Below are positions 6,763 to 25,949 of a DNA stretch of 64,000 bases, one piece after another. Below the pieces are notes generated by a model. It was not told the DNA's origin. It saw only the letters and a list, made by a program, of their open reading frames with translations, and made no database searches. The number at the start of each line of letters is the position of its first letter. Position 1 is the stretch's first letter. The stretch comes from Candidatus Minusculum obligatum (GTDB lineage Bacteria > Patescibacteriota > Minisyncoccia > Phycocordibacterales > Phycocordibacteraceae), in NCBI GenBank assembly GCA_045401155.1, contig CP174360.1, positions 233,403 to 297,402 of the forward strand. Reading direction: 5' to 3'. The position numbers and the translations under genes were made by a program.

Positions 6763-6771
6763 TAATTTGTA

Positions 6772-8628: not shown

Positions 8629-8659
8629 GTGCTTTGAGCGCACACCGATGTTTGTAGAG

Positions 8660-9194: not shown

Positions 9195-9252
9195 TTTCGT
9201 AGCGTATCAAAACCCTCCAGAAATGGGGGGTTTTGTGCTATCTTAGGGCAAT

Positions 9253-12753: not shown

Positions 12754-14152
12754 ATACAAACCAACAATTGGACTTGAGATTCATGCGGAGCTAAAGACAG
12801 CTACGAAGATGTTTTGTGACTCTAAGAATGCGCCGCATGCAAGTGAGCCTAATACGCACGTATGTCCTATTTGTATGGCGCACCCAGGAACACTTCCTGT
12901 GATCAATAAAGAGGCGGTACGACATGTGTGTCGTGTGGGAGTTGCGCTTGGCGCAAAACTTGCAGACTTTACCGAGTTTGATCGGAAGAATTATTTCTAT
13001 CCAGATATTCCAAAGGGGTATCAGATTAGTCAGTACAAGTATCCTCTAGTCTCTGGAGGAAGTTTAAATAATATAGAGATCACACGTGTGCATCTTGAAG
13101 AAGATACTGCGCGATCTTCTCACAAGGGGAATGAATCACTCATTGATTTTAATAGAGCGGGAGTTCCACTTATGGAGCTGGTGACGGAGCCGGTGATTCA
13201 TTCAGCAGAAGAGGCGAGTGCATTTGCCCGCGAACTTCAGATGCTTCTTCGTACACTTGGGGTGTCAGATGCAAATCTTGAGAAAGGGGAGATGCGTATC
13301 GAGGCAAATATTTCTATTAGTGATACTGATGCGCTTGGAACAAAAGTTGAGGTTAAAAATCTAAACTCATTTAGATCAGTTGAGCGTGCGATTGCGTATG
13401 AGCTTAAGCGACATGAGAAAGTGCTTGAGGAGGGAGGAGAGCTTCTTCAGGAGACTCGTGGATGGGATGAGGGTAAGCAGGAGACATTCTCTCAGCGTCT
13501 TAAGGAGGGTGCTGCGGACTATCGATATTTCGCAGAACCAGATCTTCCAAAATTGAAACTCTCAGAGATTCCAGAGTTTGCAGAAGATGTGTTGAAAGAA
13601 ACTCTTCCAGAGCTTCCGTGGGAGAAGCGTACTCGCTACGAAGGTCTTGGACTTAAGGAAGAAGATGTTACGTATCTTGTATCAAGTGTTGAGCGGGCAG
13701 AGTTTTTCGATACAGTGCTTGAGTCTATTGATGAGAAAAATATTGCAAAGGCAGTTAACTACCTAACCTCAGATGTTGCTGGTTTTTATAATGAGGTAGA
13801 TACACCAGAGTTTGAGAAACTCTCACCTAAAGCATTTGCAGAAGTGATTAGCATGCTTGCGGCAGATGAGATTTCATCTCGGGGAGCAAAAGATATTCTA
13901 CGAGTCCTTATGGAGGAGGGAGGAGAAGCACGCACTGTTGCAGAAGAAAAGAGTTTATTCCAAGTACAGGACACAGAGGCTCTTAAAGAAGTAGTGCTTG
14001 AAATCATCAAAGAAAATGAATCTGTTGTTGAGGAGTACAAGGGAGGTAAGGAAGCATCTCTTCAGTTTTTGGTAGGGCAAGGTATGAAGAAAACTAAAGG
14101 TGCTGCAAACCCGGGTCTTCTAAAAGAGGCTATTCTTGCCGAGATAGGCTAG
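12746..14152 (+). CDS. gatB: Asp-tRNA(Asn)/Glu-tRNA(Gln) amidotransferase subunit B
   Basis: 'PTIGLEIHAELKTATKMFC' and 'NYFYPDIPKGYQISQY' are GatB signatures. It overlaps the obg stop by 8 nt. Confidence 0.93.
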   Translation: MSKYKPTIGLEIHAELKTATKMFCDSKNAPHASEPNTHVCPICMAHPGTLPVINKEAVRHVCRVGVALGAKLADFTEFDRKNYFYPDIPKGYQISQYKYPLVSGGSLNNIEITRVHLEEDTARSSHKGNESLIDFNRAGVPLMELVTEPVIHSAEEASAFARELQMLLRTLGVSDANLEKGEMRIEANISISDTDALGTKVEVKNLNSFRSVERAIAYELKRHEKVLEEGGELLQETRGWDEGKQETFSQRLKEGAADYRYFAEPDLPKLKLSEIPEFAEDVLKETLPELPWEKRTRYEGLGLKEEDVTYLVSSVERAEFFDTVLESIDEKNIAKAVNYLTSDVAGFYNEVDTPEFEKLSPKAFAEVISMLAADEISSRGAKDILRVLMEEGGEARTVAEEKSLFQVQDTEALKEVVLEIIKENESVVEEYKGGKEASLQFLVGQGMKKTKGAANPGLLKEAILAEIG

Positions 14153-14178
14153 AAAATAAGGTTATCTCGTTGTTATTC

Positions 14179-14208
14179 TTGCCGAGACCGGAGGGTCTCG
14201 GCTATAAT
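14179..14208 (+). promoter_or_regulatory. Candidate sigma70-type promoter (TTGCCG-N18-TATAAT) overlapping a hairpin, immediately upstream of the 14216 ATG
   Basis: The -35-like TTGCCG at 14179-14184 and TATAAT at 14203-14208 are visible. The hairpin GCCGAGACC-GGAG-GGTCTCGGC at 14181-14202 sits between them, and the start codon is only 7 nt after the -10, which suggests a leaderless or very short leader mRNA. Confidence 0.4.
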
Positions 14209-14215
14209 ATATGTA

Positions 14216-14992
14216 ATGAAAGAGCTTACATTAAACGGGCGCACGTATTTGAGCACGAAGCGCGCAGCAGAAATTACTGGTTATACAACAGACTATGTCG
14301 GGCAGCTTGCTCGACAGGGAAAGGTGGATGCGCAACTTGTTGGGCGCAATTGGTATATAAGTGAAGAGGCAATTAAAAAGCACAAGTTTGGAGAGGCTTC
14401 GGTAGTGATAAAAAGAGAAGAGGAAGAAGTATCAGCTCCGCAGCTTGAAGTTCTTGTAAGTGCCACTGATGATGTTCTTGAAGTGGATGAAAAAGAAGAG
14501 GTTCCAGTTGAAGAAAACGTTGCAGAAGAAAAAGTTTCATCAGAAAACTCTCTTACAGAAATGCAAAGTGCGTGGCAAGAATGGTACAAGGCTCAACGAT
14601 CAGTTCCTACAGAAGAGGAAGAAGTTTTCTTAAGCAAAAATGATATTGAGGAAGAGAAGGCTTCAGAAGAAGTTTCTGTACCGATAACTAAAATGGAGTC
14701 TCCAAAAATAACACGTATTAACAATGATGTTAGTGCACCAACAGAAGTTGTTGAAGTTAAGCATGAAGAGGAGCGTGCACCCATGCCCTCACCTGTACAG
14801 GTAAGAGATCTTCCAGCAAAGCGTTCATGGACAGGAACAGGGTTGGTCGCTGCTGCGCTCGTAGCAATTCTGTTTGTAGGTGTCATTACAGTTTCTACTA
14901 CGTACGTACTCACAAAAAATACGGATACGCCTGTTGCAGCAGCTTTTCAAAGTCTTGAGGATTACCTACTTGGAATCAAGCGAATTGAATAG
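14216..14992 (+). CDS. Membrane protein with N-terminal excisionase/MerR-type HTH domain, acidic linker and C-terminal TM helix
   Basis: The N-terminus 'TKRAAEITGYTTDYVGQLARQGKVDAQLVGRNWYISEEAIKKH' is an HTH_17/excisionase-type HTH. A long E/D-rich linker follows, then a TM segment 'GLVAAALVAILFVGVITV' near the C-terminus. The HTH is clearly paralogous to the N-terminus of the downstream giant ORF. Confidence 0.6.
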   Translation: MKELTLNGRTYLSTKRAAEITGYTTDYVGQLARQGKVDAQLVGRNWYISEEAIKKHKFGEASVVIKREEEEVSAPQLEVLVSATDDVLEVDEKEEVPVEENVAEEKVSSENSLTEMQSAWQEWYKAQRSVPTEEEEVFLSKNDIEEEKASEEVSVPITKMESPKITRINNDVSAPTEVVEVKHEEERAPMPSPVQVRDLPAKRSWTGTGLVAAALVAILFVGVITVSTTYVLTKNTDTPVAAAFQSLEDYLLGIKRIE

Positions 14993-15100
14993 TTATTCTA
15001 TCCGAGATCTCCGAGATAGGTTATAAATAAAGCATATATCGGTCACCGAGATATCCGATAAGTCAGTAAAAGTAAGGTAAATAGAGCTTGGAGTGGTGTA

Positions 15101-15133
15101 AAAGCCCAGGAAACACAATTCCTGGGCTTTTTG
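15101..15133 (+). terminator. Rho-independent terminator
   Basis: AAAGCCCAGG-aaacacaatt-CCTGGGCTTT followed by TTTT, about 110 nt downstream of the stop at 14992. Confidence 0.55.
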
Positions 15134-15656
15134 TACAAGTCTTTGTAGAGAAAGATTCTTTATATACTCTTTCTTTGCTTAAGCAACTTATATCCTTAGG
15201 AGTTTTTTATTTAAAAATATCTCGGATACATATATATAGGTATAAGGGCAGGCGTATCTTCAAATATTAAGACCCTCAAGTTTTATTTTTTTATTGATTT
15301 ATATAGCTATTCTTTCAGTTCGTTAAAATTTTGTGTCGCAAAACAGCTTATATAAATTTACTTTATAAAAAATCCATTTCATCATTTCGAGTAAGTGTTT
15401 TTTGTTTGAACTGGGTATTTAAAATACGTTTCTAGTACAGCAGGTTTATGTGTAGTGTTTCTTTGGAGAAATATTTAATACTTTTCAAAGTAAATTTTGC
15501 TTCGAAATAAGAGGTTTAACAGTTTAATTTTTTATAATTCTCGGTAGGAAAACTTTTCTACGTAAACTACGTATTTATTAAAAAAGTATCCACATACAAA
15601 GTGCGTCAATACGGGAAATATTAGGTAAAATAATAGGGAAATCGTATATCCGTACT

Positions 15657-18600
15657 GTGTCTGCCGATTCAGAAAAATTTATTCCAACAAAGGAAGCTGC
15701 GTCTCTAGTCGGGCGTACTTCTGATTACGTTGGTCGACTTGCTCGAGAAGGGAAAATACCTGCGAGTCGGATTGGTCGATCTTGGGTTGTGAGTAAAAGA
15801 GCACTTCTGGAATATTTTGATGTTCAAGAGTCTGTAAAAGAAATTAAAAAAGAAAAACTTTCTCAAACAAGAAAAGAAGAATACAAGGAGGTCCAGAGGC
15901 CAAAAGCTAACGTTGGAAAAAGCTTAACAATTTTTGTTCAGAAGCTGCCAGTTGAAAATCTTGTTTCTTTTGCAGTTGCGGTCCTTGTTGTGTTTGGAAG
16001 TTTTTCTCTAGTGCATGCTTCTGGTTTAGCAAAGCTTCCAAAAGTTGCTCTTGATGTGATTCATGAAAAGGTTGTCTCTTTGAATCGAGGAATTGCAAGT
16101 GCAACAAACGGTCCTCGTCCAACATATGTAGGGAACTACGTAGTTGAAAAAGAAAACTTTGAAGTAGAGGGGTTTGAGATGAACAATATTTTTGCATCAG
16201 CCCTCGAAGGGTTTGAGAGTGTTGGAGAAGGTTTTGAATATCAAGGATTTTCAAAAAAGAATGACTACGTAGTTGAAGGTGATGATGGTCTGTCTCTCGT
16301 TGCTGTTTGGAATAATTACGTTGCACTAGGAGAAGGGATCGTGGAGACCTCTCATGTTTTGTCTCAAGCATATGTAGATCTTGTGCACGCGTTAGGTAAG
16401 GGGACTCTGCAGAACGCACTTGCCGCGAGAGATCTCTCACGAGCACTACATAGAAACACATTTGTTGCATATGAGTCTGGCGTGAACACTTACGTGAGTT
16501 CTCTTCAGGTAGCTCCAGATGCGTATACGGGTGCTGTATACGCTTTCGTAGATGAGAGTTATAAGATTACTAATGCTTTCGCTAAGGCTCCACTTCAGGT
16601 TGGTAATGCGATTCTTTCTTCGTCTCAGTCTATTCCTGAAGGGAACCAAAAGATCGGTTCTGGATTGCGTATAATAATGCCGGCTTTAGGTGAGGCTATT
16701 ATTAGCAGCCATGAACGTCTTGTGTATGGTTTTGTCGAGTCTTCATACGCTGTTGTAGATGCGTATAAGGATTCAATTATGCGTGCTGGTGACCATGTTG
16801 GAGGAGCGTATGCTTTTGCTCGTTTTGATTTGCCACCTAAGGTCGGCAAGGGTCTCGCAAATGCCTTTATGGCAACTACAGATGTTGTAGACGAGAGTGT
16901 AGAGCGCGCAGGAGAATATCTAGCGCAAGCATACATTGTACCAGCCGTTACAGTTACTTTGTCTGGGATTGAGGGTGTTCAGCATGATGTAGAGGGCTTC
17001 TCTAAAAATCTTGCGTCCGGGACTATTGCTAAAAAGAGTCTTTTTGAAGATGTTGCAGAGTCTGCACAGGCAAATGTTGTGGATGGTGTTCAGAACTTCT
17101 TTGCTCGAATCTTTGGGCGCGGAGAAGATCCTGTGCTTCTTGTAAACCCAGGGCCAGCTCAGACGAATGTTGTTATTAAAGAAGATGAGCCTGCGGTAAT
17201 CACTCCTGGAAACGTTGTTCAGAACTTCTTTGCAACAACAGATGTAAGTAAGAGCTACGTAGATGCCGGTATTACTTCATTGCATGCTGCGCTTTCTGCA
17301 GAAATACAAAAGCTTACTTCATTGAACCGCAACCAGATTATTCAGAACATTCAAACTACACATGTTCTTAATCGAATTGAAGATCTTACAGATACAATTC
17401 TTCGTACACCTGAAATTATCGGAGGAACACTCGATGATGTAGACATTCGAGGAAATTCTAATTTCTCAGGAAACACAGTCTCAGGAAATGAGTTTATTGG
17501 TGGTACCGCAAGCTTTGGAACAACAACTGTTTCTGAGATTAACGTAACAAATAACATTACAGCAGGAGGAGTACTTTCTGTTGCAGGTCTTACATCAAAC
17601 GGAGTTCTAACAGGACCGTACTTTACTGCAACAAGTACCACTGCAACTTCTACATTTGCTGGAAGTATAGCGGTTGATACAGACGGGTTCGTGTATGCAA
17701 CAAGCACTCGAAATGTTGGTATTGGAGTACTCTCTCCAAGTGCGCTTCTTTCGCTTCAAAACTCTACAAGTACACAGCCAATTGCGACGTTTGCAAATGA
17801 TTCTGGTTCTGAGTTATTCCGGTTTACAAATACTGGATATTTAGGAATTGGAACAACAAGTCCATATGAAGCGCTTTCAGTAGATGGAAATGGTGTGTTT
17901 ACAGGAACACTTACAGCAGGAGCAACGACGCTTTCGGGGGCGTTGGTTGGTACAACGGCAGAATTTACTTCTGGAACTACCACAAATGCTACAAGTACTA
18001 ACTTCTTTGCAACAAATGGGCGGTTTACCAATCTGATTGGCACAAATGCCACTATTACTGCAGCTACAACCACAAACTTCTACGCATCTATTTTTGACGC
18101 CGCGACAGCTGCACTCACAAATCTTGTAGCCACAAACGCCACAAGTACTAACTTTGCAGTTAGCTCTCTTGCACAAGGTTCAGTTCCATTTATTGGAACA
18201 GGGGGACGGTTAATTGATGATAATGCCAACTTCTATTGGGATGATACAAATAACCGTCTTGGCATTGGAACAAGTTCTCCGTATGCGAAGCTTTCTGTAG
18301 TAGGACAAACAGTGTCTGAATACTTTACAGCAACAAGCACCTCGCTTGTATCTACATTTCCGCTTGCGAGTTTTACATCTGCAACATCAACACAGCTTGC
18401 AGTAAATTCTCTGACATCAGGACGCCTGCCGTATGTCACTACAGGAGGTCGGTTGATCGATGATGCAGACCTTACATTCGACGGCACAACGCTTACGGGG
18501 ACAGATTTGATCTTCACTCGAGCAACCACCACAAATGCAACAAGTACCAACTTATCTGTGTCAGGAACCTTTAATGCGGTGACAGGAGGAGCTCAAGCTG

Positions 18601-21600
18601 CTGGAATTACAGTAAATGCAGATGGGTATGTAGGTATTAATAATACGAGTCCATTATCCCCACTTGATGTGACTGTTTCTGCGGCAAAGCCAGCTGTATT
18701 CAGAGGAACAACTGAGCCACGTGTTCGATTTGTTGCAAATGGAAGCAATGTCGGACTTCTAAATGGATATGTTGGAGATTCTTTCCGTGTGTACTCTTCA
18801 AGTGGGCTGCCGCTTCACATAGGAGCAAATGAGAGCACGCAGCTCCGCTTTACCACAACAGAGATTAATGTAAGTGATGATCTTATTCCTACTGCAAATG
18901 CAACATATGATCTTGGTTCTCCATCATTTTATTGGGACGATGCATACCTAGATTCTTTGACGGTAAATAACCTTTCAGCTGCATCTACATCTATTGCAGG
19001 TACAAATAATGCTTCATTCTCAATTAACTCAGACAACGCAACATCAGATGGTGAAGATGCATCACTTGTGTTTTATCGAGGCGTGGTGGTGCCAAATGCA
19101 GTGATTACGTGGGATGCAAGCGAAGATCATTTTGATTTCAACCAGAATATATTTATTCAAAATGATAATGGAGGAATTGCAACATCAACACTTGCGATTC
19201 GTGCGGCAAGTGGGCAGACAGGAAATCTATTTACAGTGCAGGATGTAAATGGTCTTGAGCTTGCAAACTTTGGGGTAAATGGATACTTGGGACTTGGGAG
19301 CTCAAGTCCATCAGTGCGCCTTACAGTTGGTACAGGCACCCCAAGTTCAATCGCTTCAGGTAATTACTATAATAGTGCGTATGTAAGTGGGGATCTTGAA
19401 GTGGATGGAACTATTTACGGAACGGTAAGTGGGGCAGTGACACCTGCTGGATTTACAGAAGGTTCGGTGGTGTTTGCGGGATCTGGAGGGACACTAACGC
19501 AAGATAATAGTAATTTTTACTGGGATGACTCAAATAATAGACTTGGAATCGGAACCTCAAGTCCGCGTAGAGCACTTCATATTGCAGAGAACAATCCATC
19601 ATTCCTCCTTGAAGATGTTTCTGGAGCTTCTGCAGGACAAAAGGTTTTGCGATTTAACTATACAGGGGGAACGGTAGATTCAGAGAGTAATTTTGCAGTA
19701 CAGTCTGCAACTGATATTGGGGGATTTTCTGAAAATCTTTTCCAGATTTTCAGAAACGGACAGGTAAGTATTAATGGAGACGCAACCCCAGAGTTTACGC
19801 TTGAGGTTTCAGGCAATGAAGGAAGTGCTGGATATTTTGGACTGTCTTCAAATACCTCAAGCGCTGGAAACATATTTATTGTTGATGGTTCAGGAAATGT
19901 TGGAATTGGTACAACTACCCCGGGGGCACGACTTCATTCTCTAAGTACAGGTACACAGCTTAGACTTGGATACGATTTTGATACGTATGCTGATTTTCAG
20001 GTTGGGTCAGGTGGCGTAACCACATTTAGTGGCGCTGGTCTTGAGTTGGATAATACAGCTGGTAATAGAATTAAACTTTCGCAAGATGGTGCAAGCGGAT
20101 GGTCAAATGAGCTTGCACTTACAGATGGATCTCAGGAATGGTGGATTCGTACAATCGCAGGACGCTTTAGTGTTCGTGATCAAACAGGCGGATCAAATGG
20201 AGTGTTTGATATTGAGGCAGGAGCTCCTGCTGAATCACAAAGTATCCAGTCAGACGGAGATGTCATCTTTGGTGTAGGAAATGTAGGAATTGGAACCACT
20301 TCTCCATATGCAAAGCTTTCAGTAGTCGGGCAAGCAGTTGCTGAGTACTTCACTGCAACAAGCACGTCGCTTGTTTCTACGTTCCCTCAGGCAAGCTTTA
20401 CATCAGCAACATCAACAAACTTCTATACCAGCACCTTTGGTATTAATAGTGAATACATTTCAGATCTTACAGGAAATGGTCTTTCAATCTCAGGCGGGCA
20501 GCTAAACGTTGCAACGAGCTCGCTTTCTGCAACCTCTGGATTCTTTTTGCAAAATGGAAATAGTTTTGGAGAAACTGCAGTTCTTGGAACAAATGATAGT
20601 AATAGTCTGGCATTTGAGACAGGAGGGTCTACAAGAGTAACTATTGATACAAGTGGAAACGTGGGAATCGGTGATACAAGCCCTGATGCTCAACTTGATA
20701 TTGTGGATACATCAACAACAGGAGCAGGTCTTATTGTTCAGAAAGATCTTGCAGCATCACGCTACACTACGAATGTTGAATCACAGTTCTCAATTCGAGG
20801 AAATACAGATGATACGGAGCGGTTGTTAATTGGGTACGCCACTGATGAAAATTATGGATATATAGAAGCTGTAGATTTCGGGAGCACCTTTAACAGGGAT
20901 TTGGTGCTTAATAGTCAGGGTGGAAACGTAGGAATTGGAACTACAACTCCTAATGTTCCACTTGAGGTACTTCGTTCAGGTGCTGCTGGGTATACATGGA
21001 CTCCAAATGCTCGTACCGCAGCACTATTCCAAAATAGTAGCGCTTCAGGTTCTGCTATTGGAATTATTGGAAAATCAACAGGATCAAGTTTTATCTGGTT
21101 TGGAGACGAGGCTTCAGAGACAATTGGACAGATTGGATTTAATCACACAAGTAATACCTTCTCTATTGAAACAGCGGGAGGGGCTGGAGACTTGTTCATC
21201 AACTCTAGTGGAAACGTAGGTATTGGAACCACAACAATAAACGCAAGCTTGACTGCGAGTGTTGCCTCAACAGGAGATGTGCTTTCTCTTGTGCGAAATG
21301 ACAACGGAAATAGGTGGGCGCTAGATCTTGGAGGAAATAATCTTAATTTCAAGTTTAATGGTGGAAATGATATTGTCACTATTAATAATGGTGCCCCAGC
21401 TGCTTCTCTTTATGTAGGGACTACAGGTGTGGGAATCGGTACAACAAGTCCATTAAGTAAGCTACATGTTGCTGGGCAAGTTACTATTGATGGCACAAAC
21501 TATTCTCGAGTAGAGTACGCGCGCAATGGTACAGATGTATGGACTGCTGGACTGCACGAAAGTGATGATTTTGAATTTTTCCGAACAAGTGGTTCGGGGA

Positions 21601-24600
21601 ATATTATTCTCCGAGCGGGCAACTTGAGTGTTGGTACAACAAGCCCAGCTGGGAAGTTGCATGTAGAGGGGTCCGGAACACAAAATGTTTTGGTTAAAGG
21701 TATTGGCAGTTCAGATCAGACAATACAATTTGGTCGTTCAGATCTTGCAACAAACTGGGTTGTTGGGCGTGATAATACAAGTAGCCGTTTTGGTATTGAG
21801 TACTTTTCTGAAGTTGGAGCAAGTCAGCTTACCGATAATTCCGTGTTCACCATTCTTCAGGGTGGAAACGTAGGTATTGGAACCACAACACCAGCACACC
21901 TCCTTGATGTAGATGGAGACTTCCGAGTAGGAGAGGCAGGAAGTTCAGACGCCTTCTTTGTAGATGCAACAAATGCATACATTGGAGTTGGTACTACAGC
22001 GCCAACTTCAAATCTTCATGTTGCTGGAACTGGAAACACTTTCCTTACAGTTGAGGCTGTAAATGGAAATGCTGTGCAGTGGATTTTGAAGACTGATAGC
22101 GGTAACCGTCGTTTTGTGGCTACTGATAATTCAAATGTACAACAATCTCAAATTCACTTTGCAGGGCAGAGAGAAATTGATTTCATTGGGGATTCTGTAA
22201 ATGATCCACTTGGAACATTTGAGGGCGGGAAGTTTGCGGTAGGAAAGACAAGTACACCAAACTTTGGTCTCGAGATTGCAACAAGTACTACAAACGGTTG
22301 GTTTGGTATTACAGATTCAACAGCTGGAGACATCTTCATTGTTGATGGTTCAGGAAACGTAGGAATTGGTACCACTACGCCAGTTGCAAAGCTTACCGTG
22401 CTGGACACATCGGCAGGTGCAGAAACGTTTGCGTTGTTTGGCCAGAACTCATCAGGTAGTGCGGGTACTGGTACTGGAATCAGGCTCGCACCGAGTGCTT
22501 TCTCATCAGGAGCAACGGTTCGAGCATTTGATATTGTTGCGGTAAATGATGGCGCAAATACCATTGATCTTGATTTCAGAGGTTCAAGTGGAGGAAGTCC
22601 AGCATCGCGTGTGCGAATTACTGGTGCTGGAAACGTAGGTATTGGTACTACTACGCCAGACGCAAACCTTTCTATTGTTAGTTCATCAGGAAACGATGCA
22701 ATTGTAAAGATAGAAGGAATACATAATGCTGTACCAGCTATTAAAATTACAGATGTAAGTGATAGTTCAGGAGGAATTGCACAAGTGATTCTTACTGGAA
22801 GACGTTTAGATGCAAATGTATCAGGTTCATTTGCAGGTAACTTTGCAGTAGGAAAACATTACAGTGGTGGTGCTGTTACAAGTGGGCAAAGGTTGGGAAG
22901 GTTTTTGTTTGGAGGAAATCATACGGATGGAACAATTGATAATCTTCTATACTCAGCAGGGATTACTGCAGTTGCAGAAGGTACGTTTACTAATGCCACA
23001 ACCATGCCAACAGGACTTGCGTTTTATACTGGCTCTGCAGGAGTGGCGCCAGGTACACCAAATGTAGAGCCTGGTACAGAACGTCTGCGTATTGATAATA
23101 GTGGAAACGTAGGTATTGGCACTCAAGCTCCAGGACGTAAGTTTGAGGTGGTTGATGCAACACAGCCGGCAATAAATGAAGTTGGATCATTTGGGGTTGG
23201 CGCAAGTGCTACAGAACAGGTTCGTATCGGGTACGATACCGCAGGTAGTGATTATGGGTGGATTCAATCTGCTGTATTTGGCACAAGCGCGACTAGTCTC
23301 TCACTTAATCCAAGGGGTGGAAACGTAGGAATTGGTACTACAACGCCATCTACAAAACTTGTTATTGCTGGGGCAAATTACAATGGAGAGCCAACCCACA
23401 AAGCAAAAGTGTTAATTCAAAATGATAATGCTAGCCAAACATTAAATAACACGGGAGGTATCGAATTTAGGTTAAGTGGATTTGGTTCAGGGTATGGATG
23501 GCGTATTGGAGGGTGGGACCTTGCTGCGTCTGGTGGAGGTGCGCCGTATGTGTGGGAGTTCCGAGGAAACTCTGCAACATGGTCAGAGCAGATGCGCCTT
23601 ACTGCAGATGGAAAGCTTGGTATTGGAACCACGAGTCCAACAGAGAAGCTTGAGGTGTATGGAGGAAAGATTTCAGTAGATTCTGGCGGGGCAACAGACA
23701 CAGAGTATCTAGAGTTTAGTTCTAGTGGAACAACGATTGGAGGAATTGGAAGAGACACAAATGATCTTGTGCTTTCAAGTCCATTTGGTATTCGACTTAC
23801 TGAAGGAAGCACGGATGTGCTGACTGTTGCGGGTGAAAATGTGATTATTGGTGGATCAAGCTTTGCCGGGCAAAGGGTGCAGATTACTGCAGATGCTGCG
23901 GTGCCGCTTGCGCTAAATCGTACAACAGATGATGGTGTGCTTGTCGATTTCTATCAGGCAACAACTGCTGAAGGATCAATTTCTGTTTCTGGAAACACAG
24001 TATCGTACAATGCCTTTACGGGGTCTCACTACGCAACTACAAATGAAAATATTCAAAAGGGACGCCTAGTTACCTTTACAGGAAATAATGCTCGCCTGAA
24101 TGGAAATCCAAGTTCTGAAATTTTGTATGGTATTACAGAGTCTTCAGTAGAAAACTCATCAAAGGTGTTGGGGTCAATGCTTGCGCTGGAAAGTCCAAGT
24201 AAGGTTCATTCAAATACAAATCCGTACCTTGTAATGGCGGTTGGTAACGGTGAAGTGTGGGTGGTAGATGAGGGAGAGAACCTTGAGCCAGGAGATTATC
24301 TTATTTCTTCAGATACGCTTGGGCATGCAGAGAAAGATACAGGAGCATATCCAATTTCACATATTGTTGCGCGTGTAGCAGAGCCAGTAGATTGGAGTAC
24401 GATTTCTGCAACCGTGGATGGAAAGAAACATGCGCTTGTAAGTGTTACGTTTGAGCAGTTTGATAAGCCAAACGGTATTAGTGTTGATGCGCTTGGAAAC
24501 GTAGGAATTGGAACAAGTGCGCCAGAGTACAAACTGCACGTTCTTGGGGATGCTGCTGCTACAAGCTTTGTAAACATTTCAACTCGTGAACAAAAGAAAG

Positions 24601-25949
24601 GTATTGCATATCTAGATGAAGCTCGAAAGGAAGACATTCTTGAGAAGCTAAAGGAGGTACAAATTGCAGAGTATCGATACAATTATGAGGATGATAATAA
24701 CCCGCTGCGCCTAGGGCTAATTGCAGAGGAGGCGCCCACAGAAGTACTGTCAGTATCAGGTAAGGGAGTTGATATCTATAAACTTGCAACCTTTACACTT
24801 GCGTCAGTACAGGAGCTTGCAACTCGTGTTGAGTCTCTTGAGGAGCGTGTCGCGGCCCTTGAGGCGCAAGGTGTAATGTCAGGATCTGGAGGAGTATTCA
24901 GTACCTCAACACTGCAGTCTGCACTTTCAGAGCTTGGTGTATTGATTGAGAGGGGGTTTGCACAGTTTGATAAGCTTGCATTCCGTCAGTTGATTGCACA
25001 GAAGGATAATGATGGACAGGGTGCTGCAGGTACAGGAACCGTACGTCTTGGAGACAAACTTGTGCTTGTTGAAAATAAGCAAATCAAAGCAAGTTCTAAG
25101 GTGTTTGTAACCTTCACGTCTCCAGTGGTTGGAAGCTGGTTTATCACAGACAAGGCAAATGGAAGCTTCCGTGTGACCCTAGATCAGGTGCAGACAAGTG
25201 ATGTAACCTTTGATTACTTCATTGTGCAGACTGAGCGAGAGGCTGTACCTACATCAGATACAGGAGTGGTAGATACTGAGGCACCTATTATTGAAATTAT
25301 TGGAGCAAATCCATACTACATAATTACAGGTAATACATTTACTGATCCAGGAGTAAATATCACAGACAATGTAGATCAAAATCTAGAGCACGAGCTATTT
25401 GTAGATGGGTATCCAGCAGCAGAGCGGCCACTTGATACGTCTGTAGCAGGAGAGCACGTGCTGACATACAAGGTGCTTGATACAGCAGGCAACCTTACAA
25501 CTGCGACACGAGCTGTGGTGGTTGGGTCGGGAGCAGGTCTTGGATCAACCGACACAGGAACTACAACACCAGCAACTACAGGAGACACAGGAACCTCTAC
25601 ACCTCCAGTTGTAGAGGAAGAAGGGGTTGTGGTTGAGGAGGAAGCAGAAGAAGTTCCAGTAGATGAGGTGGCGCCTGTAATTACGCTTACAGGAAAGGCG
25701 GCGCTTAAGGTTGCAGTTGGAGATACGTTTGTTGATGCGGGCGCAACCGCAACAGATGATGTAGATGGAGATCTTACCGCAGGTATTGTGGTAAGCGGAT
25801 CAGTTGATACAGCTACCGCAGGGCTATATACGCTCACATACACTGTTGCTGATGCGGCAGGAAATGAGTCTTCTGTATCACGTATTGTGACCGTTGAAGC
25901 TCCTGTGGAAGAAGAAGAGGAGGAAGTTACTGAAGAGGTGGTAGAGTAA
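15657..25949 (+). CDS. Giant (3430 aa) membrane-anchored surface protein: N-terminal HTH domain, TM helix, tail-fibre-like GNVGIGTTxP repeat array, internal intramolecular-chaperone (peptidase S74-like) domain, C-terminal Ig-like (DUF5011-like) domains
   Basis: An uninterrupted 10.3-kb ORF. It has an N-terminal excisionase-type HTH (aa ~10-55) and one TM helix (aa ~101-119, 'LVSFAVAVLVVFGSFSLV'). At least 12 copies of '(D)GSGNVGIGTT(T/S)P...KL.V' are Thr/Ser/Gly/Asn-rich beta-type repeats. Near aa 2975 sits 'STREQKKGIAYLDEARKEDILEKLKEVQIAEYRYNY...LGLIAEEAPTEVLSV...GVDIYKLATFTLASVQELATRVESLEERVAALEA', which matches the tail-fibre/endosialidase C-terminal intramolecular chaperone domain. Two Ig-like modules close the protein. 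Confidence 0.85.
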   Translation: MSADSEKFIPTKEAASLVGRTSDYVGRLAREGKIPASRIGRSWVVSKRALLEYFDVQESVKEIKKEKLSQTRKEEYKEVQRPKANVGKSLTIFVQKLPVENLVSFAVAVLVVFGSFSLVHASGLAKLPKVALDVIHEKVVSLNRGIASATNGPRPTYVGNYVVEKENFEVEGFEMNNIFASALEGFESVGEGFEYQGFSKKNDYVVEGDDGLSLVAVWNNYVALGEGIVETSHVLSQAYVDLVHALGKGTLQNALAARDLSRALHRNTFVAYESGVNTYVSSLQVAPDAYTGAVYAFVDESYKITNAFAKAPLQVGNAILSSSQSIPEGNQKIGSGLRIIMPALGEAIISSHERLVYGFVESSYAVVDAYKDSIMRAGDHVGGAYAFARFDLPPKVGKGLANAFMATTDVVDESVERAGEYLAQAYIVPAVTVTLSGIEGVQHDVEGFSKNLASGTIAKKSLFEDVAESAQANVVDGVQNFFARIFGRGEDPVLLVNPGPAQTNVVIKEDEPAVITPGNVVQNFFATTDVSKSYVDAGITSLHAALSAEIQKLTSLNRNQIIQNIQTTHVLNRIEDLTDTILRTPEIIGGTLDDVDIRGNSNFSGNTVSGNEFIGGTASFGTTTVSEINVTNNITAGGVLSVAGLTSNGVLTGPYFTATSTTATSTFAGSIAVDTDGFVYATSTRNVGIGVLSPSALLSLQNSTSTQPIATFANDSGSELFRFTNTGYLGIGTTSPYEALSVDGNGVFTGTLTAGATTLSGALVGTTAEFTSGTTTNATSTNFFATNGRFTNLIGTNATITAATTTNFYASIFDAATAALTNLVATNATSTNFAVSSLAQGSVPFIGTGGRLIDDNANFYWDDTNNRLGIGTSSPYAKLSVVGQTVSEYFTATSTSLVSTFPLASFTSATSTQLAVNSLTSGRLPYVTTGGRLIDDADLTFDGTTLTGTDLIFTRATTTNATSTNLSVSGTFNAVTGGAQAAGITVNADGYVGINNTSPLSPLDVTVSAAKPAVFRGTTEPRVRFVANGSNVGLLNGYVGDSFRVYSSSGLPLHIGANESTQLRFTTTEINVSDDLIPTANATYDLGSPSFYWDDAYLDSLTVNNLSAASTSIAGTNNASFSINSDNATSDGEDASLVFYRGVVVPNAVITWDASEDHFDFNQNIFIQNDNGGIATSTLAIRAASGQTGNLFTVQDVNGLELANFGVNGYLGLGSSSPSVRLTVGTGTPSSIASGNYYNSAYVSGDLEVDGTIYGTVSGAVTPAGFTEGSVVFAGSGGTLTQDNSNFYWDDSNNRLGIGTSSPRRALHIAENNPSFLLEDVSGASAGQKVLRFNYTGGTVDSESNFAVQSATDIGGFSENLFQIFRNGQVSINGDATPEFTLEVSGNEGSAGYFGLSSNTSSAGNIFIVDGSGNVGIGTTTPGARLHSLSTGTQLRLGYDFDTYADFQVGSGGVTTFSGAGLELDNTAGNRIKLSQDGASGWSNELALTDGSQEWWIRTIAGRFSVRDQTGGSNGVFDIEAGAPAESQSIQSDGDVIFGVGNVGIGTTSPYAKLSVVGQAVAEYFTATSTSLVSTFPQASFTSATSTNFYTSTFGINSEYISDLTGNGLSISGGQLNVATSSLSATSGFFLQNGNSFGETAVLGTNDSNSLAFETGGSTRVTIDTSGNVGIGDTSPDAQLDIVDTSTTGAGLIVQKDLAASRYTTNVESQFSIRGNTDDTERLLIGYATDENYGYIEAVDFGSTFNRDLVLNSQGGNVGIGTTTPNVPLEVLRSGAAGYTWTPNARTAALFQNSSASGSAIGIIGKSTGSSFIWFGDEASETIGQIGFNHTSNTFSIETAGGAGDLFINSSGNVGIGTTTINASLTASVASTGDVLSLVRNDNGNRWALDLGGNNLNFKFNGGNDIVTINNGAPAASLYVGTTGVGIGTTSPLSKLHVAGQVTIDGTNYSRVEYARNGTDVWTAGLHESDDFEFFRTSGSGNIILRAGNLSVGTTSPAGKLHVEGSGTQNVLVKGIGSSDQTIQFGRSDLATNWVVGRDNTSSRFGIEYFSEVGASQLTDNSVFTILQGGNVGIGTTTPAHLLDVDGDFRVGEAGSSDAFFVDATNAYIGVGTTAPTSNLHVAGTGNTFLTVEAVNGNAVQWILKTDSGNRRFVATDNSNVQQSQIHFAGQREIDFIGDSVNDPLGTFEGGKFAVGKTSTPNFGLEIATSTTNGWFGITDSTAGDIFIVDGSGNVGIGTTTPVAKLTVLDTSAGAETFALFGQNSSGSAGTGTGIRLAPSAFSSGATVRAFDIVAVNDGANTIDLDFRGSSGGSPASRVRITGAGNVGIGTTTPDANLSIVSSSGNDAIVKIEGIHNAVPAIKITDVSDSSGGIAQVILTGRRLDANVSGSFAGNFAVGKHYSGGAVTSGQRLGRFLFGGNHTDGTIDNLLYSAGITAVAEGTFTNATTMPTGLAFYTGSAGVAPGTPNVEPGTERLRIDNSGNVGIGTQAPGRKFEVVDATQPAINEVGSFGVGASATEQVRIGYDTAGSDYGWIQSAVFGTSATSLSLNPRGGNVGIGTTTPSTKLVIAGANYNGEPTHKAKVLIQNDNASQTLNNTGGIEFRLSGFGSGYGWRIGGWDLAASGGGAPYVWEFRGNSATWSEQMRLTADGKLGIGTTSPTEKLEVYGGKISVDSGGATDTEYLEFSSSGTTIGGIGRDTNDLVLSSPFGIRLTEGSTDVLTVAGENVIIGGSSFAGQRVQITADAAVPLALNRTTDDGVLVDFYQATTAEGSISVSGNTVSYNAFTGSHYATTNENIQKGRLVTFTGNNARLNGNPSSEILYGITESSVENSSKVLGSMLALESPSKVHSNTNPYLVMAVGNGEVWVVDEGENLEPGDYLISSDTLGHAEKDTGAYPISHIVARVAEPVDWSTISATVDGKKHALVSVTFEQFDKPNGISVDALGNVGIGTSAPEYKLHVLGDAAATSFVNISTREQKKGIAYLDEARKEDILEKLKEVQIAEYRYNYEDDNNPLRLGLIAEEAPTEVLSVSGKGVDIYKLATFTLASVQELATRVESLEERVAALEAQGVMSGSGGVFSTSTLQSALSELGVLIERGFAQFDKLAFRQLIAQKDNDGQGAAGTGTVRLGDKLVLVENKQIKASSKVFVTFTSPVVGSWFITDKANGSFRVTLDQVQTSDVTFDYFIVQTEREAVPTSDTGVVDTEAPIIEIIGANPYYIITGNTFTDPGVNITDNVDQNLEHELFVDGYPAAERPLDTSVAGEHVLTYKVLDTAGNLTTATRAVVVGSGAGLGSTDTGTTTPATTGDTGTSTPPVVEEEGVVVEEEAEEVPVDEVAPVITLTGKAALKVAVGDTFVDAGATATDDVDGDLTAGIVVSGSVDTATAGLYTLTYTVADAAGNESSVSRIVTVEAPVEEEEEEVTEEVVE
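24570..24870 (+). other. Intramolecular chaperone auto-processing (peptidase S74-like) domain inside the giant ORF
   Basis: The Ser of 'NISTREQKK' is encoded at 24579. The stretch shows the S(D/T)R..K ... AxEYxY ... GxIAQE..xV.PEVV ... GVDYxxL ... QEL ... LE.R. pattern of tail-spike/endosialidase chaperone domains. It is preceded by 'GNVGIGTSAPEYKLHVLGDAAATSF', as in many bacterial tail-fibre-domain proteins. Confidence 0.6.
25276..25905 (+). other. Two Ig-like DUF5011-type domains at the C-terminus of the giant ORF, separated by an acidic PT/E-rich linker
   Basis: 'APIIEIIGANPYYIITGNTFTDPGVNITDNVDQNL...EHVLTYKVLDTAGNLTTATRAVVV' and 'APVITLTGKAALKVAVGDTFVDAGATATDDVDGDLT...LYTLTYTVADAAGNESSVSRIVTVEA' have the G(D/N)xFxDPG(V/A)TATD..DG.LT...YT.TY.V.D.AGN pattern typical of DUF5011 Ig-like domains. 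Confidence 0.5.

What the first reader, a model, noticed from the sequence alone, without database searches (positions are those of the whole stretch)
14216..15822. Two adjacent membrane proteins share a paralogous N-terminal excisionase-type HTH: candidate membrane-tethered DNA-binding pair
ORF 14216-14992 and the N-terminus of the giant ORF align clearly (T.DYVG.LAR.GK..A...GR.W..S..A). Both place the HTH in the cytoplasm and tether it to the membrane, through a C-terminal TM after an acidic linker in the small protein and an N-proximal TM in the giant one.

This resembles one-component transmembrane regulators (ToxR/CadC-like) or RodZ-like HTH-TM scaffolds, but with a MerR/excisionase-type HTH. 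The small protein could be a partner or regulator that heterodimerises with the giant protein through the HTH. It could also anchor the nucleoid to the site of appendage assembly.
Basis: partly seen in the sequence, partly recalled or inferred. Interest (0 to 1): 0.55.

Follow-up and report, generated by a model that had tools for sequence, protein, structure and literature searches.

The report
Membrane-tethered DNA-binding pair beside giant fibre
A small membrane protein and the neighbouring 3,430-residue surface-fibre protein of this ultra-small (CPR/Paceibacteria) bacterium both carry the same excisionase/BldC-type DNA-binding domain on the cytoplasmic side. The pair and unusually conserved DNA motifs at both genes' promoters are kept across the whole class, which points to an undescribed membrane-anchored gene-control module.

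Summary
ORF 14216-14992 ("S", 258 aa) and the N-terminus of ORF 15657-25949 ("G", 3,430 aa) share a winged HTH (BLASTP E 7e-14). Each has one transmembrane helix, and charge bias puts the HTH in the cytoplasm.

The pair is not a local oddity. It occurs in 76 of 80 informative Paceibacteria genomes, always as GatB-S-gap-G. The S and G HTHs form two ancient orthologous groups, and the S HTH is more conserved than GatB. A phmmer search found more than 3,500 related clusters; the six sampled small ones are 1-2 HTH plus a hydrophobic segment.

The predicted fold matches Xis, BldC, RdfS and TraN, all DNA binders. G's ectodomain is tail-fibre-like.

I found class-wide conserved DNA elements. CGAGA/CCGAGA repeats bracket S. 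A TAATTCGGATATCCGAC palindrome abuts G's start codon. A TTATCCACA box lies 52 nt upstream of that palindrome. The palindrome tracks the G HTH and is absent where the HTH is absent.

Best reading: two membrane-tethered BldC/Xis-like DNA binders that autoregulate their own genes. DNA binding is inferred, not shown. HTH-mediated heterodimerisation is unsupported. I found no description in the literature searched.

The parts
14216..14992 (+). Gene S: 258-aa membrane-tethered winged-HTH protein. Layout: HTH, acidic linker, conserved Trp-rich helix, TM, short tail.
   Evidence: ORF and translation. 260 homologues of 240-360 aa. Alignment A1. AF2 model.
14216..14395 (+). S winged HTH, residues 1-60. 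Secondary structure: beta-hairpin, helix 14-21, recognition helix 25-34, wing 39-49, helix 50-58.
14543..14599 (+). Conserved amphipathic helix in the S linker (residues 110-128, motif L-T/S-D/E-MQSAWQEW-F/Y). Function unknown.
   Evidence: W123 invariant, M116 and W120 at 90% or more. Predicted helix with pLDDT about 85.
14828..14911 (+). S transmembrane helix (about residues 205-232), followed by a 26-aa extracytoplasmic tail with conserved G253.
   Evidence: Hydropathy and charge bias in 76 of 76 orthologues. Predicted helix 209-234.
15657..25949 (+). Gene G: 3,430-aa protein. Layout: cytoplasmic winged HTH, basic linker, TM, about 3,300-aa tail-fibre-like ectodomain.
   Evidence: Orthologues are 3,195-4,698 aa among the closest relatives and reach 6,467 aa and 7,214 aa.
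15657..15836 (+). G winged HTH, residues 1-60.
   Evidence: Pfam HTH_17 31.7 bits, E 1.9e-7. Paralogous to S. G-clade consensus sGY.sDYl.RLcReGKI...vGR.W.
15960..16019 (+). G transmembrane segment (residues 102-121, LVSFAVAVLVVFGSFSLVHA). It ends in V-H-A|S-G, a possible signal-peptidase-type motif.
   Evidence: Cleavage is not tested.
22254..23165 (+). Tail-fibre-like part of the G ectodomain (residues 2200-2503).
   Evidence: phrog_9942 E 5e-44 and phrog_18345 E 1.5e-33, both 'tail fiber protein'. G/T/S/N-rich, Lys-poor and Cys-free.
24585..24734 (+). Peptidase_S74 intramolecular-chaperone domain (residues 2977-3026).
   Evidence: Pfam 22.0 bits at cutoff 22. Also annotated in orthologues.
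25680..25895 (+). C-terminal bacterial surface Ig-like domain (one of the two matched stretches).
   Evidence: PF16403 E 1.4e-34.
14181..14208 (+). S promoter. Inverted repeat GCCGAGACC-ggag-GGTCTCGGC (14181-14202) abuts a TATAAT -10 box (14203-14208). The ATG lies 7 nt later, which implies a leaderless mRNA.
   Evidence: Sequence. Scan hit for the TATAAT box. The same layout (repeats, then TATACT/TATAAT, then 6-7 nt, then ATG) recurs in the other loci.
14139..14145 (+). Extra CCGAGAT copy inside the 3' end of gatB.
15000..15020 (+). Direct repeat ATCCGAGAT / CTCCGAGAT in 9-bp register, 8 nt after the S stop codon. Further copies lie at 15046(+), 15220(-) and 15539(-).
   Evidence: 8 of the window's 24 CCGAGA copies lie in 14139-15539. 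Conserved in L001, L005 and L007. Other lineages carry TCTCG-tatata-CGAGA-CGAGA at the same place.
15100..15131 (+). Intrinsic-terminator-like hairpin (13-bp perfect stem, then TTTTT) after S. S and G are therefore separate transcription units.
   Evidence: inverted repeat I11. Sequence.
15559..15573 (+). Lineage-specific TACGTA-aac-TACGTA repeat immediately 5' of the box below.
15586..15594 (+). GTATCCACA, the window's version of the class-wide TTATCC(A/C)CA box. The box matches the DnaA-box consensus and lies a fixed 52 nt before the palindrome element.
15626..15631 (+). Putative -10 box of the G promoter (TAAAAT).
   Evidence: Aligned with the consensus aG.TA.aAT from 39 loci.
15638..15654 (+). 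GAAATCGTATATCCGTA, the window's diverged copy (12/17) of the class-wide element TAATTCGGATATCCGAC. The element sits between the -10 box and the start codon of G.

Best explanation
S and G are an ancient paralogous pair of single-pass, N-in membrane proteins. Their cytoplasmic N-terminal domain is a BldC/Xis-type (MerR-superfamily) winged HTH that binds DNA.

G is a membrane-anchored, probably trimeric, tail-fibre-like surface fibre. S is the minimal form: an HTH on a long acidic tether.

I propose that each HTH recognises conserved operator DNA at its own gene:
- S binds the CGAGA/CCGAGA repeat arrays. One array sits in the spacer of its leaderless promoter and another sits just after its stop codon, so the gene is bracketed.
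- G binds the TAATTCGGATATCCGAC element between its -10 box and its start codon.

Binding would repress or tune transcription. The amount of fibre, or of its HTH-TM stub, already in the membrane would then feed back on fibre synthesis. As a by-product the locus would be held at the membrane.

Shown: homology, conservation, synteny, predicted fold, charge-based topology, and the existence, position and co-variation of the DNA elements.

Inferred: DNA binding, which protein binds which element, and the regulatory outcome.
For: 1. Paralogy is significant: E 7e-14, and each N-terminus finds only the other in the window.

2. The pair is conserved.
- 230 genomic relatives of S were found.
- In 76 of 80 informative loci S is followed by a large ORF that opens with the same HTH type. 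The gap between them is 230-985 bp in 74 of them (two outliers of 1.8 and 7.3 kb), median 558 bp.
- The upstream order SecA-Obg-GatB was seen in L001-L003, with variants in L004 and L085. A GatB-sized ORF directly upstream was seen in 70 loci.

3. S and G form two orthologous clades.
- 152 of 152 nearest neighbours fall in the same class.
- Mean identity is 68% within S, 49% within G and 30% between S and G, whatever the genome.
- The S HTH (71%) is more conserved than GatB (66%).

4. The fold is DNA-binding.
- HTH pLDDT is about 95.
- The closest solved relative by sequence is the dsDNA-binding TraN (E 1e-5).

5. hhalign aligns the HTH to BldC without gaps over residues 5-41. BldC's phosphate-contact K33 corresponds to the invariant R33. 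BldC's base-reading R30 is R in the G clade and Q in the S clade.

6. Operator-like DNA is present.
- Tandem CGAGA repeats occur 29 to 54 times (strict/loose pattern) just upstream of S on the + strand and 46 to 56 times just after its stop on the - strand. In 1.3 Mb there are only about 13 further copies apart from one recurrent coding-sequence motif.
- [AC]CGAGA[TC] is enriched 4.5-fold, while same-composition controls are depleted to 0.6.
- The G element is 17/17 identical in 24 loci and at least 15/17 in 49 of 76.

7. These elements resemble BldC sites. BldC's natural whiI repeats are AATCCGAGC and AATTCGGAC, each a 9-bp unit (PMC5859096). The G element begins AATTCGGA. The window's element after the S stop codon is ATCCGAGAT/CTCCGAGAT in 9-bp register.

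8. The element co-varies with the G HTH.
- G-HTH profile score against element match gives Spearman 0.64 (p 2.5e-10, not phylogenetically corrected). Against the TTATCCACA box it gives -0.15 (not significant).
- In three loci (L042, L048, L073) the downstream gene has no HTH. All three have only chance-level element matches but keep a perfect TTATCCACA box.
- Partial Mantel test of element against G-HTH, controlling for GatB distance: r 0.36, p 0.0005.

9. Many relatives carry two tandem HTHs before the TM, a pseudo-dimer as in TraN. That fits DNA binding.
Against: - No binding experiment exists, and no structure with DNA could be modelled here.
- The G element lies within about 20 nt of the G HTH coding sequence. 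Co-variation and co-loss could therefore reflect physical linkage or replacement of the 5' end of the gene rather than recognition. The statistics are not phylogenetically corrected.
- The pentamer repeats are spaced 5 bp apart in most lineages. This is not BldC's 9-bp register and is awkward for two adjacent winged HTHs.
- The palindrome half-sites are only about 6 bp apart.
- S scores below the Pfam and TIGRFAM cutoffs.
- At least one structural neighbour (CbpM) uses this fold to bind a protein.
- The conserved elements could be read by other factors, for example DNA-binding proteins encoded elsewhere in the genome.
- The sequence before the G start codon could act at the RNA or translation level.
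- The metagenome scan did not reveal further genes carrying the G element, but it was dominated by chance hits.
Confidence: 0.5

Rival explanations
1. Chromosome-to-membrane tether (RacA-like or centromere-like). The HTHs bind the conserved sites mainly to hold this chromosomal region, or the nucleoid in general, at the membrane or at the base of the fibre. Transcriptional control would not be the selected function.
For: - RacA and the pSK1 Par centromere-binding domain are among the structural neighbours.
- The binding-site-like repeats bracket the S gene, as partition sites often flank their own operon.
- Many family members have little or no ectodomain, so they are poor candidates for sensors.
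- In cells this small, all DNA lies near the membrane (general knowledge).
Against: - The sites sit exactly on promoter features: the -35/-10 spacer of S and positions +1 to +16 of G. That is typical of regulators.
- There are only two or three repeat units per site, not an array.
- No partner such as ParA or DivIVA is linked to the locus.
- This rival is not exclusive with the preferred explanation.
Confidence: 0.17
2. Protein-interaction module (RodZ-like or CbpM-like). The winged HTH has lost DNA binding and recruits a conserved cytoplasmic partner, such as the cytoskeleton, Sec machinery, RNA polymerase or a chaperone, to the membrane and to the base of the fibre. S and G would compete or cooperate for that partner.
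For: - The S HTH is more conserved than GatB over the whole recognition helix, not just on one face. That could reflect a conserved protein partner.
- RodZ sets a precedent for an HTH-TM protein that binds MreB (general knowledge).
- CbpM is a structural neighbour that binds a J-domain.
- The pair sits in a conserved block with SecA.
- S has a second conserved Trp-rich helix that looks like a binding motif.
Against: - Basic residues at BldC's DNA-contact positions are invariant (R33, R44).
- The domains carry a net positive charge (read from the sequences).
- Highly conserved operator-like DNA co-occurs with, and co-varies with, the HTH.
- Tandem double HTHs are typical of DNA-binding pseudo-dimers.
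- SecA, Obg and GatB are housekeeping genes whose order is simply conserved.
Confidence: 0.13
3. Cleavable leader. In G the HTH, linker and TM act as an exceptionally long signal peptide. Signal peptidase cuts after the TM (window V-H-A|S-G) and frees the fibre. The S-like HTH-TM stub that remains acts as the regulator, or is released by intramembrane proteolysis. Each exported fibre would then leave one regulatory token in the membrane.
For: - Small residues at positions -3 and -1 directly after the hydrophobic segment occur in the window and in many orthologues (for example AYA|S, VYA|A, VHA|S, AGA|T).
- The stub would have the same architecture as S.
- Three orthologous positions carry genes with an ordinary short N-terminus and a hydrophobic segment but no HTH.
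Against: - The hydrophobic segments are about 19-23 residues long, which is TM-like and longer than typical signal-peptide h-regions.
- AXA-like motifs are common by chance, and no signal-peptide predictor was available.
- A fibre with no other anchor would be lost from the cell.
- This is a refinement of the preferred explanation rather than an alternative to DNA binding.
Confidence: 0.12
4. Remnant of a mobile element. The HTHs are excisionases or recombination directionality factors, or AlpA-like phage regulators, left from a prophage whose tail-fibre gene became G.
For: - Pfam, TIGRFAM and PHROG hits are to excisionase families.
- The G ectodomain matches phage tail-fibre families and the S74 chaperone.
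- Inverted repeats flank S.
Against: - No integrase, recombinase or other phage gene was seen among the neighbours that were annotated.
- The position between gatB and gap/rpiB-type housekeeping genes is fixed in about 80 species-level genomes.
- Both genes have the same orientation in every locus.
- Fusion to a TM segment is incompatible with a diffusible recombination directionality factor.
Confidence: 0.02

Closest known systems
BldC (Streptomyces; PDB 6ama/6amk; PMC5859096)
   Same: - A MerR-superfamily winged HTH with no coiled-coil or effector domain.
- Ungapped profile alignment over residues 5-41, with R30 (G clade), R33, G35 and K36 matching.
- BldC's natural 9-bp repeats AATCCGAGC and AATTCGGAC resemble the conserved elements found here.
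   Different: - BldC is a soluble 68-residue protein. Here the domain is tethered to the membrane and, in G, fused to a fibre of more than 3,000 residues.
- Sequence identity is only about 16-19%.
- Binding to direct repeats is shown for BldC and only inferred here.
- In most lineages the repeats are in 5-bp register, not 9-bp.
Excisionases / recombination directionality factors (mycobacteriophage Pukovnik Xis 4j2n, RdfS 8dgl, Tn916 Xis 1y6u; Pfam HTH_17, TIGR01764)
   Different: There is no integrase, no att sites and no mobile-element context. The genes are conserved chromosomal core genes, and the domain is membrane-tethered.
TraN (AM32) of the pIP501 type IV secretion system (PDB 4p0y/6g1t)
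   Same: It is the closest solved relative by sequence (E 1e-5). It has two tandem excisionase-type winged HTHs, like the many double-HTH members of this family. The PDB entry title describes it as a double-stranded-DNA-binding type IV secretion protein.
   Different: TraN is described as a cytosolic monomeric protein (abstract of PMC10877727). It has no TM segment and no ectodomain.
ToxR/TcpP, CadC and VtrA-type membrane-bound one-component regulators
   Same: Same logic: a cytoplasmic winged HTH, one TM and an extracytoplasmic part. ToxR and TcpP are a pair of such proteins that co-occupy one promoter (general knowledge). Related 'co-component' systems are reviewed in PMC9214523.
   Different: Their DNA-binding domain is OmpR/PhoB-type (Trans_reg_C), which was not detected here. 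Their outer domains are small sensor domains, not a 26-aa tail or a 3,300-aa fibre.
RacA (Bacillus subtilis chromosome anchor; PDB 5i41/5i44)
   Different: RacA reaches the membrane indirectly, through a coiled coil and DivIVA (general knowledge). It binds as a symmetric dimer (PMC5859096).
RodZ
   Same: The architecture N-terminal cytoplasmic HTH, linker, single TM and short outer part is like S.
   Different: RodZ has an XRE-type HTH that binds MreB, and a RodZ_C domain. Neither was detected.
Phage tail fibres and tailspikes with a C-terminal S74 intramolecular chaperone
   Same: The G ectodomain matches tail-fibre PHROGs (E 5e-44 and 1.5e-33) and Peptidase_S74.
   Different: G is encoded in a cellular core locus. 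It is anchored by an N-terminal TM, preceded by a cytoplasmic HTH, and carries Ig-like domains after the S74 domain.

Membership tests
Pfam HTH_17 (PF12728) / TIGR01764 'excise' winged HTH | Profile score above the curated cutoff (protein G) | tested here: met
   PF12728 31.7 bits against a cutoff of 27. TIGR01764 28.3 against 28.8, just below.
Pfam HTH_17 (PF12728) / TIGR01764 'excise' winged HTH | Profile score above the curated cutoff (protein S) | tested here: inconclusive
   21 bits against 27, and 22.2 against 28.8. S is nevertheless homologous to G at E 7e-14, and some S orthologues carry a precomputed PF12728 hit.
Pfam HTH_17 (PF12728) / TIGR01764 'excise' winged HTH | Xis/MerR-type winged-helix fold | tested here: met
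Excisionase / recombination directionality factor | Encoded in a mobile element next to an integrase and att sites | tested here: not met
   Neighbours are SecA, Obg, GatB, GAPDH and RpiB. The same synteny holds across genomes.
Classical MerR regulators | C-terminal coiled-coil dimerisation helix and effector-binding domain | tested here: not met
   No MerR or MerR_1 Pfam hit. In S the HTH is followed by a disordered acidic linker; in G it is followed by a basic linker.
BldC family | Stand-alone small winged-HTH protein | tested here: not met
   Both proteins carry a TM segment and further regions.
BldC family | Head-to-tail binding to 9-bp direct repeats (AATTxxxxC) | not testable with these tools
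   Candidate sites exist: a 9-bp-spaced ATCCGAGAT/CTCCGAGAT repeat at 15000-15020, and AATTCGGA at the start of the G element. Binding itself needs an experiment.
ToxR/CadC/TcpP-type membrane-bound regulators | OmpR/PhoB-type winged HTH (Trans_reg_C) | tested here: not met
   No such hit at E up to 1.
ToxR/CadC/TcpP-type membrane-bound regulators | N-in single-pass topology with a cytoplasmic DNA-binding domain | tested here: met
   One TM per protein. K+R bias is 70:0 for S and 50:5 for G in favour of N-in. This uses the positive-inside rule only.
RodZ | XRE-type HTH (HTH_25) plus a RodZ_C domain | tested here: not met
   Neither domain was detected.
Anti-sigma factor (single-pass) | Match to an anti-sigma model above cutoff | tested here: not met
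   NF052375 16.2 bits against a cutoff of 100, over the TM region only.
Tail-fibre-like proteins with an S74 intramolecular chaperone (G ectodomain) | Tail-fibre homology and a Peptidase_S74 domain | tested here: met
   phrog_9942 E 5e-44 and phrog_18345 E 1.5e-33. PF13884 22.0 bits at cutoff 22. Trimerisation and autocleavage were not tested.
oriC / DnaA-box cluster (for the TTATCCACA box) | Cluster of several DnaA boxes with an AT-rich unwinding element and a GC-skew switch | tested here: not met
   There is a single box per promoter. Cumulative GC skew rises monotonically through the region.

The most novel reading that the evidence does not exclude
The giant fibre is itself a transmembrane transcription factor. 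Its N-terminal HTH emerges first from the ribosome and binds the TAATTCGGATATCCGAC element at the 5' end of its own gene, which is still being transcribed. That locks the 10-kb gene to the membrane while the remaining 3,300 residues are made and exported, and blocks re-initiation. Afterwards, the state of the fibre (assembled, cleaved, or engaged with a host cell) would be reported to the chromosome through the same HTH. S would be the constitutive minimal paralogue.

The thousands of related 1-2xHTH-TM proteins would then be the main one-component transmembrane signalling system of CPR bacteria. In these cells every gene lies within reach of the membrane.
Probability: 0.15. Interest if true: 0.9.

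Novelty: new variant of a known kind. Interest (0 to 1): 0.68.

Why it matters
CPR/Patescibacteria are ultra-small, mostly episymbiotic bacteria. How they regulate genes and sense hosts is largely unknown.

This locus gives a class-wide conserved and so far undescribed module, as far as the searched literature shows. It consists of a membrane-tethered BldC/Xis-type HTH protein and a giant tail-fibre-like surface protein carrying the same HTH. The promoter DNA is conserved almost base for base across genomes whose orthologous proteins are only 30-66% identical.

This offers three things:
- concrete, cheap experiments with defined 17-22-bp oligonucleotides and 60-residue domains;
- a candidate mechanism that couples synthesis of a host-attachment fibre to its presence in the membrane;
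- an entry point into a family of more than 3,500 sequence clusters, whose members are currently annotated only as 'helix-turn-helix domain-containing protein' in the examples checked.

It would also extend the known repertoire of membrane-bound transcription factors from OmpR-type to MerR/Xis-type domains.

Tried and rejected
- **Protein search with G residues 1-300.** The word-indexed search returned nothing at E up to 1e-3. The exhaustive phmmer search later found 3,523 relatives, so the first result was a sensitivity failure, not absence.
- **PDB sequence search with full-length S.** It gave only low-complexity noise. The HTH-only profile found TraN.
- **Rfam.** Nothing but a tRNA at gathering thresholds in the whole window. 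Permissive searches of 14950-15700 and 8600-9260 returned only terminator-like sub-threshold hits. No known RNA family explains the long S-G gap.
- **RNA-hairpin reading of the palindrome TCGGATATCCGA.** Rejected as the main explanation. The stem would be only 4 bp. Variants such as TTCGCTCATTCGTC and TTCGTTCATCCGAC break pairing instead of compensating.
- **Antisense promoter after the S stop codon.** The sequence beside the inverted repeat is the stop codon plus an AT-rich run and lacks a proper -10 box. Not supported.
- **oriC reading of the TTATCCACA box.** Rejected: single boxes and no skew switch.
- **Generic promoter element reading of the CGAGA repeats.** Rejected. Outside the flanks of S, almost all copies in 1.3 Mb are one conserved coding motif about 1.8 kb upstream.
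- **Metagenome scan for AATTCGGATATCCGAC, to look for a regulon.** 16 of 120 rows were G-type promoters. The other 99 informative rows looked like chance hits in unrelated contigs, so the scan was uninformative.
- **Mobile-element or excisionase origin.** Rejected on context.
- **A third HTH copy in the window.** None found, although some other genomes have extra copies.
- **Literature searches.** Searches for a description of this architecture found none.

Full report
**What is at the coordinates.** The window comes from a Patescibacteria (CPR) genome. The small protein is 100% identical to ACJKSS_01485 of 'Patescibacteria group bacterium UBA2103', on a contig of 578,798 bp.
- ORF 14216-14992 (+) encodes a 258-aa protein, here called S.
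- ORF 15657-25949 (+, GTG start) encodes a 3,430-aa protein, here called G. NCBI annotates G with the same ends as 'immunoglobulin-like domain-containing protein' (XKT75440.1).
- Upstream lie SecA (9253-11739), Obg (11746-12753) and GatB (12746-14152).
- Downstream lie GAPDH, RpiB, a pilin-like gene, Rpe and a split transketolase.

- The two N-termini align at 34% identity over 113 residues, E 7e-14.
- A phmmer search of each N-terminus against all six-frame ORFs of the window finds only the other one.
- G passes Pfam HTH_17. S is sub-threshold but clearly homologous to G.
- S has an acidic linker (net charge -22 in the window, median -20.5 in the family), one TM near the C-terminus and a 26-aa tail.
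- G has a basic linker and a TM at residues 102-121.
- In 76 genomes the K+R bias around the TM favours an N-in topology for S in 70 cases to 0, and for G in 50 cases to 5. This rests on the positive-inside rule only.

**The pair is conserved across a bacterial class.**
- S has 260 homologues of about 240-360 aa.
- Alignment A1 shows a nearly invariant HTH, a second conserved motif (MQSAWQEWF/Y in a predicted helix), a C-terminal TM and a short tail with a conserved Gly.
- A scan of species-representative genomes found 230 relatives and returned 80 loci. Their record titles name Kaiserbacteria, Wolfebacteria, Paceibacterota and Parcubacteria, and several carry other labels such as Saccharibacteria.
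- In 76 of 80 loci with enough downstream DNA, S is followed on the same strand by a large ORF that opens with the same HTH type and usually runs off the end of the locus. The gap is 230-985 bp in 74 of them (two outliers of 1.8 and 7.3 kb), median 558 bp. Called orthologues reach 4,097-6,467 aa, and one relative reaches 7,214 aa.
- The upstream order SecA-Obg-GatB was seen in L001-L003, with variants in L004 and L085.

**Two ancient orthologous HTH lineages.**
- All 152 HTHs have their nearest neighbour in their own class.
- Mean identity is 68% within S, 49% within G and 30% between S and G. The last figure is the same whether or not the two come from one genome.
- The duplication therefore predates the radiation, and there is no concerted evolution.
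- The S HTH (71%) is more conserved than GatB (66%) in the same genomes.
- Consensus for S: GYAKDYVGQLCREGrV...VGRnWYV. Consensus for G: sGY.sDYl.RLcReGKI...vGR.W.

**A very large family.**
- phmmer with G residues 1-140 against 1.84 billion cluster representatives gave 3,523 hits at E up to 1e-3 and 398 at E up to 1e-10.
- Apart from six giant orthologues, most of the 150 listed hits are 300-400-aa proteins with two matched stretches. The six I read show two tandem HTHs followed by a hydrophobic segment and a variable outer part.
- The names carried by the examples checked are only 'helix-turn-helix domain-containing protein' or 'tail fiber domain-containing protein'.

**Fold.**
- AF2 on alignment A1 predicts residues 1-60 at pLDDT about 95: a beta-hairpin, two helices, a beta-wing and a third helix.
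- By sequence, the HTH profile finds only TraN of pIP501, a dsDNA-binding protein with two tandem HTHs (E 1e-5).
- hhalign aligns the family to BldC without gaps over residues 5-41.
- In the numbering of the BldC paper (PMC5859096), phosphate-contact K33 corresponds to the invariant R33. The base-reading R30 is R in the G clade and Q in the S clade.
- By my own alignment of the wing, the invariant R44 sits where BldC has His46.

**The G ectodomain.** It is G/T/S/N-rich, Lys-poor and Cys-free. It matches tail-fibre PHROGs (E 5e-44 and 1.5e-33), Peptidase_S74 and two Ig-like domains. G is best read as a membrane-anchored tail-fibre-like surface fibre. By analogy with S74-containing phage fibres it is probably trimeric, but that was not tested.

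**Conserved DNA at S.**
- In most lineages the S promoter reads ...CTATTCCAtACGAGaCGAGAtAgccTTATACT, then 6-7 nt, then ATG. Tandem CGAGA units fill the spacer before the -10 box, and the mRNA is effectively leaderless.
- Between 10 and 25 nt after the stop codon lies the inverted copy, often as TCTCG-tatata-CGAGA-CGAGA.
- With the loose pattern there are 54 copies just upstream (+ strand) and 56 just downstream (- strand). With the strict pattern there are 29 and 46. Apart from one recurrent coding motif, only about 13 further copies occur in 1.3 Mb.
- In the window's lineage the unit is CCGAGA. An inverted repeat at 14181-14202 abuts TATAAT (14203-14208). A 9-bp-spaced direct repeat lies at 15000-15020. 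Further copies lie at 15046, 15220 and 15539.
- Eight of the window's 24 CCGAGA copies lie within these 1.4 kb.
- A terminator-like hairpin at 15100-15131 separates the S and G transcription units.

**Conserved DNA at G.**
- The consensus from 39 loci is TTATCCaCA-N19-cgaaataac-N-aG-N-TAnaAT-N-TAgtTAATTCGGatATCCGAC-aTG.
- The 17-mer TAATTCGGATATCCGAC is identical in 24 loci and matches at 15/17 or better in 49 of 76. In the large majority of loci where both are recognisable, the TTATCC(A/C)CA box lies 51-53 nt upstream of it.
- The window has GTATCCACA (15586-15594), TAAAAT (15626-15631) and a diverged element GAAATCGTATATCCGTA (15638-15654) before the GTG at 15657.

**Link to BldC sites.** BldC's natural whiI site is AATCCGAGC plus AATTCGGAC, and each protomer reads one 9-bp unit. 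The G element begins AATTCGGA. The window's repeat after the S stop codon is ATCCGAGAT/CTCCGAGAT. This resemblance is suggestive and nothing more.

**Co-variation of the G element with the G HTH.**
- How well a G HTH fits the clade profile correlates with the match of its element (Spearman 0.64, p 2.5e-10). It does not correlate with the TTATCCACA box (-0.15).
- In L042, L048 and L073 the gene after S has no HTH. All three lack the element but keep a perfect box.
- The partial Mantel test, controlling for GatB distance, gives r 0.36 and p 0.0005 for the G HTH, and r 0.20 and p 0.03 for the S HTH.
- Caveats: the element and the HTH coding sequence are physically adjacent, and none of these tests is phylogenetically corrected.

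**Interpretation.**
- The best-supported reading is a pair of membrane-tethered BldC/Xis-type DNA binders that act on their own promoters.
- The closest functional analogues are the ToxR/TcpP-type membrane-bound regulators and the chromosome anchor RacA. Membership of those families fails on the type of HTH.
- Excisionase function is excluded by context.
- Rivals that remain open are a pure tethering role, a protein-recruitment role, and cleavage of G after its TM (AXA-like motifs) that would leave an S-like stub.
- I found no description of this architecture in the searchable literature.

Noticed in passing
window 8826-8834 and 15586-15594; loci L001-L084: The DnaA-box consensus TTATCC(A/C)CA occurs 109 times in 1.3 Mb, and 106 of those are on the + strand. 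About 100 sit at just two conserved promoters per locus: the G promoter and a promoter about 5.4 kb upstream of S, ahead of a small basic gene that precedes secA. There is one box per promoter and no GC-skew switch, so this is not an obvious oriC. The protein that binds the box is unknown.
   Followed up: partly
window 8952-9194 (+): An 80-aa Lys/Ala/Pro-repeat protein (MPAKKKAAPKRKTAKKAAPKRK...) that looks like a histone-H1/Hc1-type nucleoid protein and has no Pfam hit. Its promoter carries ACTACGTAGT (8810) next to TTATCCACA (8826), with a second ACTACGTAGA (8938) 4 nt before the ATG. Small genes occupy the same position before secA in L001-L003.
   Followed up: partly
There it sits at conserved positions: the promoter of the small basic gene, the G promoter, and inside G about 505 nt after the start (codons N-Y-V-V) in all five. 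This suggests a lineage-specific operator, including an intragenic site.
   Followed up: partly
window 14203-14218 and equivalents in about 60 loci: The S gene appears to be leaderless. A TATAAT/TATACT box ends 6-7 nt before the ATG in nearly every locus, and no Shine-Dalgarno sequence is present. G likewise has a short leader of about 16 nt with no Shine-Dalgarno sequence.
   Followed up: partly
window 16011-16025 (G residues 119-123, V-H-A|S-G); orthologues: Many G orthologues have small residues at positions -3 and -1 right after the hydrophobic segment (AYA|S, VYA|A, AGA|T). This raises the possibility that the HTH-TM is cleaved off by signal peptidase. No predictor was available to test it.
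   Followed up: no
L042 ~11221, L048 ~4936, L073 ~2010: In three genomes the gene after S starts with an ordinary short N-terminus and a hydrophobic segment and has no HTH. The TAATTCGGATATCCGAC element is absent there, while the TTATCCACA box is perfect. These act as natural 'HTH deletions'.
   Followed up: partly
L004 (S with two HTHs), L010, L027, L083 (extra HTH ORFs after G), L077 (G with two HTHs), L085 (2xHTH S-like protein plus a 1,316-aa HTH-TM protein): The copy number of the HTH varies: tandem duplication occurs within S or G, and additional HTH-TM genes follow G. In L085 the GatB/S/G arrangement is kept, with a doubled HTH in S and a much shorter G.
   Followed up: partly
window 14543-14599 (S residues 110-128): A Trp-rich helix (L-T/S-D/E-MQSAWQEW-F/Y; W123 invariant) lies in the middle of the otherwise disordered acidic linker of S. 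It is conserved class-wide and its function is unknown. It could be a docking motif.
   Followed up: no
window 27414-27878 (+): A type IV pilin-like gene (N_methyl motif, E 1e-7) sits between the pentose-phosphate genes rpiB and rpe.
   Followed up: no
window 49957-54073: This stretch has higher G+C (0.51 against about 0.43). Its long overlapping ORFs (408 aa and 1,055 aa) have no Pfam hit, and there is no Rfam hit. Its nature was not determined.
   Followed up: no
window 33-8628: A surface-glycan cluster lies upstream: three glycosyltransferases (two GT1, one GT2), methyltransferases, a Polysacc_synt flippase and a Wzy_C/TPR protein. The Wzy_C gene is also syntenic with the SecA...S-G block in other genomes.
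   Followed up: no
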